Below, piece by piece: positions 52,787 to 55,773 of a stretch of DNA of 64,000 nt; position 1 is the first letter of the stretch, and each line of letters starts with the position of its first letter. The notes under the pieces are model-generated. The model was not told the DNA's origin and did not search any database. It saw only the letters and a list, made by a program, of their open reading frames with translations. Location of the stretch: NCBI RefSeq assembly GCF_056712565.1, contig NZ_CM160072.1, one strand, 5' to 3'. A program made the position numbers and the translations under genes.

Positions 52787-53608
52787 ATGCGTACAACCAT
52801 TGCTGTAGTGTTGGGTGCAATTAGTTTGACGTCTGCTTTTGTGTTTGCAGATAAACCAGACGTTGCCAAATCGGCAAACGATGAGGTCAGCACCCTGTTT
52901 TTTGGTCATGATGATCGTGTGCCAGTGAATGACACGACCCAATCACCGTGGGATGCGGTTGGCCAACTGGAAACGGCCAGCGGCAATTTATGTACGGCGA
53001 CGCTGATTGCACCCAATCTGGCATTAACGGCAGGACACTGTTTATTGACGCCGCCAAAGGGTAAAGCCGATAAAGCGGTAGCGCTGCGTTTCGTGTCAAA
53101 TAAAGGTCTTTGGCGCTATGAGATCCACGACATAGAAGGCCGCGTTGATCCGACACTGGGAAAGCGGTTAAAAGCAGATGGGGATGGCTGGATTGTACCT
53201 CCCGCAGCTGCGCCCTGGGACTTCGGTTTGATTGTGCTACGTAATCCCCCTTCTGGCATTACACCGTTGCCGTTATTTGAGGGAGATAAAGCCGCGCTTA
53301 CCGCCGCATTAAAAGCGGCTGGTCGTAAAGTGACTCAGGCGGGCTACCCTGAAGATCATCTCGATACGTTGTACAGTCATCAAAACTGTGAAGTGACTGG
53401 CTGGGCGCAAACGTCGGTGATGTCGCATCAGTGCGATACCTTGCCGGGTGACAGCGGTTCGCCTCTGATGTTGCATACCGATGACGGCTGGCAATTAATT
53501 GGGGTGCAAAGCTCGGCTCCTGCCGCGAAAGATCGCTGGCGCGCCGATAACCGGGCCATTTCTGTTACCGGTTTTCGCGACAAGCTGGATCAACTGTCGC
53601 AAAAATAA
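52787..53608 (+). CDS. ydgD: Trypsin-like serine protease YdgD, 273 aa
   Basis: Signal peptide; TAGHC and GDSGSP catalytic motifs. Confidence 0.85.
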
Positions 53609-53616
53609 TGTTCAAA

Positions 53617-53640
53617 CGCTGCCCGACAGCGCGGGCAGCG
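53617..53640. terminator. Bidirectional hairpin between ydgD and mdtI
   Basis: cgctgccc/gggcagcg stem. Confidence 0.55.
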
Positions 53641-53646
53641 TGTTCA

Positions 53647-53976
53647 TCAGGCAAGTTTCACCATGATCATTCCAGCCAACAGCAGCACCAGGCCAATCCA
53701 GCCTTTACGATTTAACCTTTGACCAAACAAGATCCAACCTGCGGCTAACGTGGCGGCAATACCAAACCCGCCCCACAATGCATAAGCGACAGACAAGTCG
53801 ATCCCTTTAACGGCCTGAGAAAGCGCACTAAAGGCAGCCAGCACCGCCGCCAGAGAGAGCAAGCCAAATATTTTGCGACGAAAGCCGTCAGAAAATTTCA
53901 AAAAGACGTTAGCAACGATTTCCAGCACGATTGCCAATGCCAGCCAGGCGGCGTGAACCCATTCAAACTGCGCCAT
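53647..53976 (-). CDS. mdtI: Spermidine export protein MdtI (SMR family), 109 aa
   Basis: Four-TM SMR protein; overlaps mdtJ by 14 nt. Confidence 0.9.
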
Positions 53977-54328
53977 GGTTCACCTCCAGTTCAGGTTTAC
54001 GCGCTTTACGGGTACCTGACTTGATCAACACAATCCCGGCCACCAGGGTGGTTAACCCGGCAATTTTCATCAGCGATAAACTTTCGTCGAATAACAAAAC
54101 GCTAAACAAGGTAATAAATAAAATACCGATACCTTCCCACAGCGCATAAGCTACGCCTAAGGCGATTTTTTTAACGGCGAAAGAGAGAAATATATACGAC
54201 AGAGAAATCATCACCAGCATTAAAATAAAGCCGCCATTTCCCTCACTGACGCTCGCCCATTTCATTGACAGCGTACCGGTAATTTCCGTAGCAATAGCCA
54301 GACCTAATAAAATCCAATAAATATACAT
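53963..54328 (-). CDS. mdtJ: Spermidine export protein MdtJ (SMR family), 121 aa
   Basis: Four-TM SMR protein. Confidence 0.9.
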
Positions 54329-54738
54329 TATCCTTCTCCTGCAAGAGAATTATTTTAATTTTCGCTTAATTCAGCGAAACCAAAGTAAAGTGATCAAGCC
54401 CCGCGCATAGCGCAAGCTTAGGCAGAAGAAAGGACTAAAGCGCGTTGCGCCAGTGCTGCTCACCTACGAGCAAGATAGTGGATGAGGTACGAAGATGGGT
54501 AAATGTAGAAAATAACGTCCTGAACAAATTGTCCATAATATTACAATTATCCGCAGTGTTGCTTCTCGTCCTCGCGGATGATAATTGTCCTCGGTAGTTG
54601 AACACGCCTGATTTGTATCACAGCTTAAGAATTAACTCAAAATATTTTCACTTCTTTACCTGAGCGGTTTGATTTTCGTTATGATGACGGAGCGGAAAAG
54701 ACATTATTATTAGCAAAGAAGAAAAAACGGGGACAAGC

Positions 54739-55773
54739 ATGGCAAAGCCGATCATCACGCTCAATGGCCTAAAAATCGTCATTATGTTGGGAATGCTGGT
54801 CATTATTCTCTGCGGTATCCGTTTTGCCGCCGAGATCATCGTGCCGTTTATTCTCGCATTATTTATTGCTGTTATTCTTAACCCGCTGGTGCAACACATG
54901 GTCCGCTGGCGTGTGCCGCGTGTACTGGCAGTGTCAATTTTGATGACCATCATCGTGATGGCGATGGTGTTGCTGTTAGCTTATCTGGGTTCCGCGCTCA
55001 ATGAGTTGACGCGGACGTTACCGCAATATCGCAACTCTATTATGACGCCGCTGCAAGCGATTGAACCGTTGTTGCAACGCGTAGGGATTGATGTCTCAGT
55101 TGACCAACTGGCGCATTACATTGATCCGAACGCGGCGATGACGTTGCTCACCAACTTATTGACGCAGTTATCTAATGCCATGTCATCAATATTTTTATTG
55201 CTGCTGACGGTGCTGTTTATGTTGCTCGAAGTGCCACAATTGCCCGGAAAATTTCAGCAAATGATGGCGCGTCCGGTTGAAGGGATGGCGGCGATTCAGC
55301 GTGCGATTGACAGTGTGTCTCATTATCTGGTGCTGAAAACAGCCATCAGCATCATCACCGGCCTGGTCGCCTGGGCGATGCTCGCCGCACTCGATGTTCG
55401 CTTCGCTTTTGTCTGGGGATTGCTGGCCTTTGCGCTTAATTACATCCCGAATATTGGTTCAGTTCTCGCGGCAATCCCCCCTATCGCTCAGGTACTGGTG
55501 TTTAATGGCTTCTACGAAGCGTTGCTGGTGCTGGCGGGATATCTGCTGATTAATCTGGTCTTCGGCAATATTCTGGAGCCACGCATCATGGGGCGTGGGC
55601 TGGGGCTTTCCACATTGGTGGTATTTTTGTCGTTGATTTTTTGGGGATGGTTGTTAGGACCGGTGGGTATGCTGCTTTCCGTGCCGTTGACAATTATTGT
55701 CAAAATTGCGCTTGAACAAACAGCGGGAGGTCAAAGCATCGCCGTTCTGTTAAGCGATCTCAATAAAGAGTGA
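54739..55773 (+). CDS. tqsA: AI-2 transport protein TqsA (YdgG), 344 aa
   Basis: AI-2E family membrane protein; full length. Confidence 0.9.

What the first reader, a model, noticed from the sequence alone, without database searches (positions are those of the whole stretch)
54543..54588. Imperfect inverted repeat in the 410-bp divergent mdtJI-tqsA intergenic region
ACAATTATCCGC...GCGGATGATAATTGT (arms at 54543-54554 and 54574-54588) lies in an unusually long divergent promoter region between the spermidine exporter operon and the AI-2 exporter gene. It is a candidate regulator binding site or RNA structure of unknown function.
Basis: seen in the sequence. Interest (0 to 1): 0.2.

Follow-up and report, generated by a model that had tools for sequence, protein, structure and literature searches.

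The report
Conserved RNA hairpin before uORF mdtU
The inverted repeat is real and most likely folds into a conserved RNA hairpin near the start of the spermidine-exporter (mdtUJI) messenger, between a ribosome-binding motif and the start codon of the small regulatory reading frame mdtU; it is an undescribed piece of an already known control region, not a new kind of element.

Summary
It is the best inverted repeat in the 410-bp mdtJ-tqsA spacer, and only 5 of 300 shuffles match it.

It is not in untranscribed promoter DNA. The published mdtJI start site maps to window 54605 (minus strand), so the repeat is +18..+63 of the mdtUJI mRNA. It ends 6 nt before the AUG (+70) of mdtU, the uORF required for spermidine induction and linked to Rho-dependent attenuation of mdtJI.

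The 69-nt segment from +1 to that AUG is the most conserved part of the locus: 86% identity across 22 taxa, against 75.5% for the mdtJ coding sequence.

In 105 distinct leaders, 97% of stem positions pair, and two pairs show compensatory changes. The G·U pairs fit only the mdtU-sense strand. The hairpin persists where tqsA is absent.

A GAGG/GGAG motif abuts the 5' foot in 104 of 105 leaders, and no Shine-Dalgarno lies near the AUG. All indels fall inside the hairpin.

My best reading, which is inferred, is a split ribosome-binding site for mdtU of the phage T4 gene 38/25 type, possibly polyamine-sensitive. The invariant loop remains unexplained. This is an ordinary-to-moderately interesting new part of a known system.

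The parts
54635..54640 (-). -35-like hexamer TTGAGT of the mdtUJI promoter (inferred)
   Evidence: It lies 17 bp upstream of the -10-like hexamer relative to the published start site. It scores below the threshold of the consensus scan. It is conserved in the relatives.
54612..54620 (-). Extended -10-like element TGaTACAAA (inferred)
   Evidence: Its position relative to the start site is read from the sequence and the published start. Leuzzi et al. report -10/-35 boxes associated with this start, but their exact letters are only in a figure.
54605..54605 (-). Transcription start site of mdtUJI (+1, a G)
   Evidence: Primer extension placed the start at a G, with the mdtJ ATG at +278 (PMC4636849). 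dRNA-seq gives the same start in PMC7815308. The K-12 and window leaders have no indel between the start and mdtJ, so +1 = 54328 + 277.
54589..54592 (-). Shine-Dalgarno-like GAGG (+14..+17), directly abutting the 5' foot of the hairpin
   Evidence: It is the strongest anti-SD match upstream of mdtU (-5.9 kcal/mol; the window strain alone has an equal GAGGAC in the loop). GAGG, GGAG or GGGG occurs at this spot in 104 of 105 distinct leaders.
54574..54588 (-). 5' arm of the RNA hairpin (+18..+32, ACAAUUAUCAUCCGC), including the 3-nt bulge
54555..54573 (-). 19-nt loop (+33..+51). Its core GACGAGAAGCAA (54559-54570) follows the pattern GA-N-GA-R-AAGCAA, which is invariant
   Evidence: The column counts over 105 distinct leaders are. 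No consistent pairing partner was found in the leader.
54543..54554 (-). 3' arm of the RNA hairpin (+52..+63, GCGGAUAAUUGU)
54537..54542 (-). A/U-rich 6-nt spacer AAUAUU between the 3' foot of the hairpin and the mdtU AUG
   Evidence: The spacer is 6 nt long in 91 of 105 leaders, 7 nt in 13 and 8 nt in 1. No SD-like motif lies within reach of the AUG.
54435..54536 (-). uORF mdtU (= ydgV; 33 codons plus stop; AUG at +70)
   Evidence: It is identical to K-12 mdtU b4777. Its translation, and its requirement for spermidine induction, are shown in PMC7815308. Pfam PF23502 covers exactly these 33 residues. It is conserved in all related loci.
54329..54434 (-). Distal leader between the mdtU stop and the mdtJ AUG, including the small conserved hairpin UUCUC/GAGAA (54334-54349) over the mdtJ ribosome-binding site
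   Evidence: The leader alignment and RNAalifold are. A Rho-dependent 3' end lies 6 nt into mdtJ.

Best explanation
The inverted repeat is an RNA stem-loop in the 5' leader of the mdtUJI mRNA and forms part of the translation-initiation region of the regulatory uORF mdtU.

Shown or taken from the literature:
- Transcription starts at 54605 on the minus strand.
- The repeat is +18..+63 of that RNA.
- The mdtU AUG is at +70.
- mdtU translation is required for spermidine induction of mdtJI, and the leader is subject to Rho-dependent premature termination.

Shown here:
- The helix is conserved across enterobacterial genera, with compensatory and wobble changes. It consists of about 6 bp, a 3-nt 5' bulge and a further 6 bp.
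- A GAGG/GGAG motif sits directly at its 5' foot.
- The AUG has no Shine-Dalgarno of its own and sits 6-7 nt past the 3' foot.
- All length variation lies inside the hairpin.

Inferred:
- Folding of the hairpin brings the distant Shine-Dalgarno, 52 nt away in the linear RNA, to a functional distance of about 6 nt from the AUG. This would be a split ribosome-binding site.
- The amount of mdtU translation would then depend on this fold. That in turn would set ribosome cover of the C-rich mdtU region against Rho, and hence mdtJI expression.
- Because the helix carries a conserved bulge between a distant SD and the AUG, spermidine might tune this step, as proposed for group-1 'polyamine modulon' mRNAs. 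This last step is the most speculative.
For: Position:
- The start site is a G with the mdtJ ATG at +278.
- The K-12 and window leaders are colinear and the arms are identical.

Structure:
- The hairpin appears in the minimum-free-energy folds of the 77-nt, 90-nt and 287-nt leader. In the window sequence the arm pairing probability is about 0.95, while the SD and the spacer plus AUG stay about 0.75 unpaired.
- RNAalifold on 64 leaders returns ACAA/UUGU plus AUCCGC/GCGGAU.
- On 105 distinct leaders, 97% of cells pair, against 30-45% when partners are slid. There are 5 CG->UA changes and 6 GC->AU changes, the latter with a G·U intermediate.
- The six G·U cells would be A·C on the plus strand.

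Constraint:
- The +1..AUG segment is 86% identical across 22 taxa. The comparison values are 75.5% (mdtJ coding sequence), 71% (mdtU), 68% (promoter) and 54% (mdtJ third codon positions).

Split ribosome-binding site:
- The strongest anti-SD match is GAGGA at the 5' foot; the only candidate nearer the AUG is a weak GGAU buried in the 3' arm.
- The SD core is kept in 104 of 105 leaders, including a GAGGA->GGAGA swap.
- Linear SD-AUG distance varies from 48 to 56 nt, but the folded distance is 6 nt in 52 of 64 leaders and 7 nt in 7 of 64.
- Robust mdtU-lacZ translation from the native leader has been reported.

Precedents: T4 genes 38 and 25, and the polyamine-modulon rule of a distant SD plus a bulged hairpin.

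Consistent with an RNA-structure-dependent leader: overproduction of CspD raises mdtUJI.
Against: - No experiment has addressed this hairpin.
- Single-sequence folding energies are not significant (z -0.8 to -1.9).
- Covariation is limited to two base pairs, because the sequence is almost invariant. The measure 'pairs with a change on both sides' is reached by 59 of 500 shuffles.
- SD-less AUGs in A/U-rich unstructured contexts can be translated well, so the bridging may be unnecessary.
- The intervening hairpin (46 nt) is about twice the size of the T4 precedents (22-27 nt).
- Bridging does not explain why the loop core is invariant.
- In K-12, reporter-transposon fusions inside the 3' arm are translated in two frames (PIRT-Seq). 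Ribosomes recruited by this SD may therefore start elsewhere.
- The conserved C-terminus of MdtU points to a nascent-peptide sensor rather than an initiation sensor for spermidine.
Confidence: 0.5

Rival explanations
1. The hairpin is mainly a scaffold that presents its invariant loop (GA-N-GA-R-AAGCAA) to a trans-acting partner. Candidates are Hfq (the loop reads as three A-R-N triplets), an sRNA with a UUGCUUCUC-like seed, or another RNA-binding protein. Alternatively, the stable ~280-nt attenuated leader is itself a regulatory RNA whose seed is this loop.
For: The loop core is invariant in 105 distinct leaders and is better conserved than the stem. The only variable loop-core positions fit an A-R-N reading: G/A at an R position and any base at an N position. 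A discrete ~280-nt leader transcript accumulates, and the same study describes other 5'-UTR-derived regulatory RNAs.
Against: No partner has been identified. No consistent complementary site exists in the leader itself. Two N positions of the putative A-R-N repeats are invariant, which that motif does not require. The conserved SD and fixed folded spacing are not explained by this reading.
Confidence: 0.2
2. The hairpin is itself the spermidine-responsive element. Polyamine binding to the bulged helix stabilises the fold that joins the SD and the AUG. This raises mdtU initiation and thereby blocks Rho, an RNA-level polyamine sensor.
For: The architecture matches the published rule for group-1 polyamine-modulon mRNAs: a distant SD and a bulged-out region in a 5'-UTR hairpin. 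A 5' bulge of 2-4 nt is kept in all 105 leaders although its sequence varies. Spermidine induction needs mdtU translation and is only partly Rho-dependent.
Against: The strongly conserved MdtU C-terminus (GEQHWRNAL) and the speFL precedent favour nascent-peptide stalling as the sensor. Excess spermidine inhibits rather than stimulates other distant-SD mRNAs. There is no direct test.
Confidence: 0.15
3. The repeat is a DNA operator for a transcription factor acting on the mdtUJI promoter (AcrR, H-NS or an unknown dimer), or on tqsA.
For: AcrR shifts a 286-bp fragment that contains the repeat, and two sites were predicted computationally. My scan puts one 24-mer with 10 mismatches at 54532-54555, overlapping the left arm. 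H-NS binds the region, and sites downstream of +1 have been proposed. Compensatory changes also preserve a DNA palindrome.
Against: - The AcrR shift is partial, and is seen only at 1 uM.
- A match with 10 of 24 mismatches is weak.
- The arms do not match the H-NS or Fur motifs better than other spots in the spacer.
- The loop between the arms is more conserved than the arms.
- Indels change the arm-to-arm distance by up to 8 bp.
- The G·U states are asymmetric in DNA.
- The repeat lies at +18..+63, and it is kept where tqsA is absent.
- The H-NS reporter fusions all contain the repeat, so they are uninformative.
Confidence: 0.1
4. The segment is conserved because it is protein-coding. The candidates are the 24-codon CDS61 proposed by PIRT-Seq, or an N-terminally extended MdtU (45 or 56 aa).
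For: In K-12, kanamycin-resistant in-frame reporter insertions were recovered at two positions inside the 3' arm, one in each of these frames (35 and 5 reads). The authors show CDS61 conserved in four genera. PGAP annotates a 56-aa YdgV.
Against: - The CDS61 ATG lies in the -10 box, 16 nt upstream of the mapped start site.
- The CDS61 ORF is intact in only 18 of 80 loci; GTTTAAC gives an early stop in most.
- An in-frame upstream ATG for mdtU exists in only 37 of 80 loci.
- The window strain lacks both ATGs.
- Indels in Kosakonia, Buttiauxella and Phytobacter break the frames while the helix is kept.
- Pfam YdgV covers only the 33-aa part.
- An ATG->ACG change at +70 abolishes the mdtU fusion.
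Confidence: 0.05
5. The hairpin is a generic mRNA-stabilising or co-transcriptional folding element: a 5' stem-loop that protects against RNase E, or a pause hairpin. It has no role in initiation.
For: It lies near the 5' end of a leader whose short form accumulates. The hairpin forms in all folds.
Against: Seventeen conserved unpaired nucleotides precede it, whereas protective 5' stem-loops normally sit within a few nucleotides of the 5' end (established knowledge, e.g. ompA). No U-tract or terminator-like feature is present. Near-invariance of sequence is not expected for a purely structural role.
Confidence: 0.1

Closest known systems
The mdtU-mdtJI leader of E. coli: uORF-dependent, spermidine-responsive, Rho-dependent attenuation (Adams et al. 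2021, eLife, PMC7815308; start site from Leuzzi et al. 2015, PMC4636849)
   Same: The repeat lies inside this very leader, at +18..+63, just upstream of the uORF. The sequence of arms, SD and uORF is identical to K-12.
   Different: In the passages I read, the published work describes the uORF, its conserved C-terminus, the Rho-dependent 3' end and a predicted pairing of the mdtU 3' region with the mdtJ ribosome-binding site. Those passages do not mention a stem-loop upstream of the uORF or the origin of its ribosome-binding site.
Split ('accommodated') ribosome-binding sites of phage T4 genes 38 and 25 (Nivinskas et al. 1999; Malys & Nivinskas 2009; reviewed in PMC3014915)
   Same: In both cases the SD is too far from the AUG in the linear RNA and a stable hairpin fills the gap. 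The folded spacing falls in the functional range (T4: 22->5 nt and 27->11 nt; here 52->6 nt). The hairpin is phylogenetically conserved.
   Different: Here the hairpin is about twice as long, carries a bulge and an invariant 12-nt loop core, and serves a chromosomal regulatory uORF rather than a phage structural gene. Function has not been tested here.
Group-1 'polyamine modulon' mRNAs of E. coli (oppA, fecI, fis, rpoN, rmf and others; Igarashi/Kashiwagi laboratory, PMC7177335)
   Same: Both have a distant or obscure SD, and a bulged-out region in a 5'-UTR hairpin between the SD and the AUG. Both show a physiological link to spermidine.
   Different: Those genes are defined by measured polyamine stimulation of translation, which has not been measured for mdtU. 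Their SD-AUG distances are 10-15 nt, not about 50 nt.
The speFL leader: an arrest peptide that senses ornithine and controls Rho access (cited in PMC7815308)
   Same: Both are polyamine-pathway operons controlled by a uORF and Rho, with a conserved uORF C-terminus.
   Different: In speFL the sensor is the nascent peptide in the ribosome. In what I read, no structured split ribosome-binding site upstream of the uORF is mentioned.

Membership tests
mdtUJI 5' leader (published regulatory region) | The element lies between the mapped start site and the mdtJ AUG, on the mdtJ-sense strand | tested here: met
   The start site is 54605, the repeat is +18..+63 and the mdtJ AUG is +278. The G·U pairs fit only the minus strand.
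mdtUJI 5' leader (published regulatory region) | The element travels with mdtU-mdtJ in other genomes, irrespective of the upstream neighbour | tested here: met
   It is present in all 79 loci with enough upstream DNA. These include loci with pntB or unrelated genes upstream in place of tqsA.
Split ribosome-binding site (T4 gene 38/25 type) | The SD-like motif is too far from the start codon in the linear RNA, and there is no SD at the normal distance | tested here: met
   GAGG lies 52 nt from the AUG. The best motif near the AUG is GGAU (-3.3 kcal/mol), inside the 3' arm. The SD core is present in 104 of 105 leaders.
Split ribosome-binding site (T4 gene 38/25 type) | A conserved stable hairpin fills the interval, and the folded SD-AUG spacing lies in the functional range | tested here: met
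   The folded spacing is 6 nt in 52 of 64 leaders and 7 nt in 7 of 64, while the linear spacing is 48-56 nt. The helix is 97% paired.
Split ribosome-binding site (T4 gene 38/25 type) | Destabilising the hairpin lowers translation and compensatory changes restore it | not testable with these tools
   This needs reporter fusions or toeprinting.
Polyamine modulon, group 1 | A distant or obscure SD, with a bulged-out region in a 5'-UTR hairpin at the initiation site | tested here: met
   A 5' bulge of 2-4 nt is present in all 105 leaders. The rule is quoted.
Polyamine modulon, group 1 | Synthesis of the protein is stimulated by polyamines at the level of translation | not testable with these tools
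   Only spermidine induction of mdtJI mRNA and protein, dependent on the mdtU AUG, has been published.
Palindromic transcription-factor operator (AcrR or other) | A good match to a known binding motif | tested here: not met
   The best AcrR 24-mer overlapping the repeat has 10 mismatches. No H-NS-motif match within 2 mismatches falls in the arms, and the best Fur-box match there has 7 of 19 mismatches.
Palindromic transcription-factor operator (AcrR or other) | Conservation is concentrated in two half-sites at a fixed distance | tested here: not met
   The loop core is invariant while the arm positions vary. Indels alter arm spacing.
Intrinsic terminator / classical attenuator hairpin | A G+C-rich stem followed by a U-tract | tested here: not met
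   No terminator-like site lies in 54250-54800. The stem is followed by AAUAUUAUGG.
Any curated RNA family (Rfam 15), including riboswitches | A match to a covariance model | tested here: not met
   There are only chance-level hits (E >= 1.4, far below gathering scores) in 53600-55000.
Small protein gene CDS61 (PIRT-Seq) | The open reading frame is preserved in relatives and its start codon lies inside the transcript | tested here: not met
   The ORF is intact in 18 of 80 loci. Its ATG lies 16 nt upstream of the mapped start site, and is GTG in the window strain.

The most novel reading that the evidence does not exclude
The bulged hairpin with its invariant loop is the regulatory heart of the leader. 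On this reading it is an RNA module that senses spermidine directly, or through a loop-binding factor, and decides whether the distant Shine-Dalgarno is joined to the mdtU AUG. Polyamine efflux would then be controlled by a riboswitch-like 'SD-AUG clamp' that acts through uORF translation and Rho, rather than (or in addition to) nascent-peptide stalling.
Probability: 0.12. Interest if true: 0.7.

Novelty: new member of a known kind. Interest (0 to 1): 0.35.

Why it matters
MdtJI is the spermidine exporter of E. coli and its relatives. Its induction by spermidine is known to need translation of the uORF mdtU and to involve Rho, but the authors of that work state that the mechanism is open.

This analysis adds three testable points:
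- It shows how mdtU may get its ribosomes, and therefore how Rho access may be set: a conserved structured element that appears to join a distant ribosome-binding motif to an SD-less start codon.
- It separates two possible sensing steps, initiation and elongation arrest, that can be tested with simple fusions.
- It gives a non-coding explanation for sequence conservation that a recent genome-wide screen read as a new small gene (CDS61).

If the split ribosome-binding site is confirmed, it would, to my knowledge, be an unusual bacterial chromosomal example of an arrangement best documented in phage T4.

Tried and rejected
1. Rfam scan of 53600-55000 at a permissive threshold: only chance hits.

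2. Consensus promoter and terminator scan: nothing found. The promoter was placed from the published start site instead.

3. Long-range pairing of the invariant loop with the rest of the leader. RNAduplex in 22 taxa gave different targets in each, and energies no better than shuffled loops. Rejected.

4. Coding explanations (CDS61, extended MdtU, the 56-aa YdgV). ORF and start-codon conservation fail. A mini-ORF from near-cognate AUU/AUC after the SD, ending just before the mdtU AUG, holds in the no-indel majority and in Buttiauxella. It does not hold in Kosakonia, Cedecea, Erwinia or Phytobacter (hand reading sequences). Not adopted.

5. Known protein motifs (AcrR, H-NS high-affinity motif, Fur box): weak or absent at the arms.

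6. The published H-NS deletion fusions all retain the repeat according to their primers. Their effect can also be read as loss of the attenuator. Uninformative.

7. Protein search with YdgV, to reach more distant genera, returned essentially the genera already sampled, adding only Intestinirhabdus. The metagenome DNA-pattern scan did add 41 new leader variants.

8. An alternative hairpin between the 3' arm and the second GGACAAUU copy after the AUG is weak, and is lost where codon 3 differs. Not pursued.

9. Covariance model R1 finds the element once in the 64-kb window, so it is not a dispersed repeat.

Full report
**The observation.** The sequence at 54543-54588 reads ACAATTATCCGC-(19 nt)-GCGGATGATAATTGT. 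The repeat finder reports it as two overlapping registers, 9/9 bp and 8/9 bp. Together they make 12 Watson-Crick pairs interrupted by a 3-nt bulge in the longer arm. The flanking ORFs are mdtJ (53963-54328, -), mdtI (53647-53976, -) and tqsA (54739-55773, +), and the spacer is 410 bp. It is the best inverted repeat of this type in the spacer, and 5 of 300 dinucleotide shuffles reach 12 pairs. The 9+9 pattern is unique in the 64-kb window. Folding energies of the single sequence are not significant (z -0.84 and -1.89).

**Where it lies.** The window is E. coli: the spacer matches 5422 of 5426 complete genomes and is 100% identical to ATCC 11775 and several ExPEC strains. Two papers map the mdtJI start site. 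Primer extension finds a G with the mdtJ ATG at +278 (PMC4636849), and dRNA-seq gives the same start (PMC7815308). The K-12 and window leaders are colinear, so +1 is 54605 on the minus strand.

- The repeat is +18..+63 of the mdtUJI mRNA.
- The uORF mdtU (= ydgV, 34 codons, stop 106 nt before mdtJ) occupies 54536-54435, and its AUG is at +70.
- The hairpin therefore ends 6 nt before the mdtU start codon.

Adams et al. showed that mdtU is translated, that an ATG->ACG change abolishes spermidine induction of mdtJI mRNA and MdtJ protein, and that the leader is subject to Rho-dependent premature termination. The 'unusually long divergent promoter region' is thus mostly a 277-nt transcribed leader.

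**Conservation.** A scan of one genome per species with MdtJ returned 80 loci. The genera are Escherichia, Citrobacter, Salmonella, Enterobacter, Lelliottia, Kluyvera, Leclercia, Silvania, Kosakonia, Buttiauxella, Cedecea, Erwinia, Phytobacter, Pluralibacter and Huaxiibacter. All loci with enough upstream DNA carry an MdtU-like uORF (MD...GEQHWRNAL). The segment from the start site to the uORF AUG is nearly invariant.

Mean identity to the window over 22 taxa:

| Segment | Identity |
|---|---|
| +1..AUG | 86% |
| mdtJ coding sequence | 75.5% |
| mdtU | 71% |
| promoter | 68% |
| rest of the leader | 62% |
| mdtJ third codon positions | 54% |

The hairpin is kept in at least 12 loci where tqsA is not the neighbour. 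In Escherichia sp. MOD1-EC7003 and Salmonella arizonae, pntB is adjacent. In Silvania, Kosakonia, Erwinia, Phytobacter, Pluralibacter gergoviae and Enterobacter sp. ENT03, other sequence lies upstream. The element therefore belongs to mdtUJI, not to tqsA.

**Is it an RNA helix?** RNAalifold on 64 distinct leaders gives ACAA/UUGU plus AUCCGC/GCGGAU. A metagenome scan for the MdtU C-terminal coding pattern added 41 new leader variants. On the combined 105 distinct sequences, a structure of 6 bp, a 3-nt 5' bulge and a further 6 bp is paired in 97% of cells. When the partners are slid, only 30-45% of cells pair.

- One inner pair changes CG->UA in 5 sequences of the Leclercia/Silvania type.
- Its neighbour changes GC->AU in 6 sequences of the Erwinia type, with one G·U intermediate.
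- Six G·U cells would be A·C on the plus strand, which points to the mdtU-sense RNA.
- Indels in Buttiauxella, Cedecea, Kosakonia and Phytobacter fall in the bulge, the loop, or as matched insertions in both arms. The helix is rebuilt in a different register.

The covariation is real but thin, because the sequence hardly varies. 'Pairs with a change on both sides' is not significant against shuffles (59 of 500), while cell counts and the covariation score exceed all 500. No Rfam family matches, there is no terminator-like tail, and a covariance model of the element hits the window once.

**What it most likely does.** The mdtU AUG has no Shine-Dalgarno at the usual distance. The 6-nt spacer is AAUAUU or AAUUUU, and the only purine-rich motif within about 20 nt is GGAU, inside the 3' arm. 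The strongest anti-SD match of the upstream leader is GAGGA, directly abutting the 5' foot of the hairpin. GAGG, GGAG or GGGG occupies that spot in 104 of 105 leaders. This includes a GAGGA->GGAGA swap that keeps an SD core.

The linear SD-AUG distance varies from 48 to 56 nt. With the hairpin closed, the unpaired distance is 6 nt in 52 of 64 leaders and 7 nt in 7 of 64. In the first 90 nt of the window transcript, the arms pair with probability about 0.95, while the SD and the AUG region stay about 75% unpaired.

This is the anatomy of a split ribosome-binding site, as shown experimentally for T4 genes 38 and 25. There, a hairpin reduces 22 nt to 5 nt and 27 nt to 11 nt, and its disruption lowers translation.

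I infer that the hairpin makes mdtU translatable. Because mdtU translation is needed for spermidine induction of mdtJI, in a leader subject to Rho-dependent termination, the hairpin would set the basal gain of the attenuator. A further, weaker inference concerns polyamines. A distant SD with a bulged 5'-UTR hairpin is exactly the feature ascribed to group-1 polyamine-modulon mRNAs, so spermidine could act here too. However, the conserved MdtU C-terminus favours nascent-peptide sensing.

**Rivals.**

*DNA operator.*
- AcrR shifts a 286-bp fragment containing the repeat, but only partially and only at 1 uM. The two predicted sites have 10 of 24 mismatches.
- My scan places one such 24-mer at 54532-54555, overlapping the left arm.
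- H-NS binds the region, but the published deletion fusions all retain the repeat.
- Against an operator: the loop is more conserved than the arms, arm spacing varies, and the G·U states are asymmetric.

*Coding.*
- PIRT-Seq recovered translated reporter fusions inside the 3' arm of K-12 in two frames. The authors proposed a 24-codon CDS61 and an extended MdtU.
- The CDS61 ATG sits in the -10 box, 16 nt upstream of the mapped start.
- The ORF is intact in only 18 of 80 loci, and an in-frame upstream ATG exists in only 37 of 80.
- The window strain lacks both ATGs.
- Those fusions do suggest that ribosomes are recruited upstream of the 3' arm, which is compatible with a functional GAGG.

*Loop-centred function.*
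- The loop core GA-N-GA-R-AAGCAA is invariant in all 105 leaders.
- This is not explained by bridging, and I found no conserved partner in the leader.
- A trans-acting partner (Hfq-type A-R-N triplets, an sRNA or a protein) remains open.

*Stability or pause hairpin.* This is possible, but it does not predict the sequence invariance or the SD geometry.

**Comparison with what is known, and novelty.** The regulatory system (uORF mdtU, Rho, spermidine) is published. In the passages I read, the stem-loop, the origin of the mdtU ribosome-binding site and the invariant loop are not described, and the mdtU/ydgV literature searches turned up no dedicated study. The element works like a T4-type split ribosome-binding site. 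It meets the sequence-level criteria of that class and of the polyamine-modulon rule, but the defining functional tests cannot be done here. I file it as a new member of a known kind within a known leader. It is of moderate interest, mainly because it makes the open mechanism of spermidine-controlled mdtJI expression directly testable. It also offers a non-coding reading of a recently proposed small gene.

Noticed in passing
window 54435-54605 (-): RefSeq/PGAP annotates a 56-aa 'protein YdgV' whose GTG start codon coincides with the mapped transcription start (+1). Its first 23 residues are a translation of the leader hairpin. K-12 RefSeq annotates only the 34-codon mdtU, and Pfam PF23502 matches only residues 24-56. 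The 56-aa model is probably over-extended.
   Followed up: yes
window 54571 and 54621 (- strand; RNA +35 and -16): Relative to K-12, the window strain has G instead of U in the hairpin loop (AUG->AGG, creating a second GAGGAC) and G instead of A in the -10 region (ATG->GTG). It therefore lacks both ATG start codons proposed by PIRT-Seq for an extended MdtU (CDS62) and for CDS61. The spacer variant identical to the window was listed for ATCC 11775 and several ExPEC strains; only 181 of 5422 genomes are at least 99% identical.
   Followed up: partly
window 54559-54570 (-): The loop core GA-N-GA-R-AAGCAA is invariant in 105 distinct leaders and is better conserved than the stem. It reads as three A-R-N triplets and resembles the mdtJ ribosome-binding site GGAGAAG(G/C)A. 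No conserved pairing partner was found in the leader.
   Followed up: partly
window 54645-54659 (-): The block GTAAAGAAGTGAAAA at about -41..-55 of the mdtUJI promoter is nearly invariant across genera, including genomes without tqsA upstream. It could be an UP element or an activator site. No regulator is known to me.
   Followed up: no
window 54527-54534 and 54583-54590: There is a direct repeat AATTGTCC (GGACAAUU on the mRNA strand). One copy spans the SD and 5' arm, the other the mdtU AUG and codons 2-3. The two GGA motifs are 54 nt apart, a geometry reminiscent of dual CsrA sites. This was not tested.
   Followed up: no
window 54334-54349 (-): A small conserved hairpin UUCUC...GAGAA sequesters the mdtJ Shine-Dalgarno in most genera (RNAalifold on 23 leaders). 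Together with the pyrimidine block after the mdtU stop, it is a likely translational lock on mdtJ.
   Followed up: partly
window about 54384-54503: The recurrent 120-bp deletion selected in ionic-liquid tolerance evolution of MG1655 and DH1 (breseq -56/-237; PMC5691611) maps by arithmetic to the distal two-thirds of mdtU plus about 50 nt after its stop. It leaves the promoter, the hairpin and the first ~11 codons intact. This fits loss of the Rho attenuator at least as well as the H-NS-site loss proposed by the authors.
   Followed up: partly
L002 and L062 (upstream of mdtU): In Escherichia sp. MOD1-EC7003 and Salmonella enterica subsp. arizonae, tqsA is missing (only a C-terminal remnant remains in L062), and pntB lies directly upstream of the mdtU leader.
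   Followed up: partly
window 54435-54500 (-): The central part of mdtU is C-rich and G-poor (CAUUUACCCAUCUUCGUACCUCAUCCACUAUCUUGCUC). By eye it looks like a Rho utilisation site lying inside the uORF, which would explain why uORF translation counteracts Rho.
   Followed up: no
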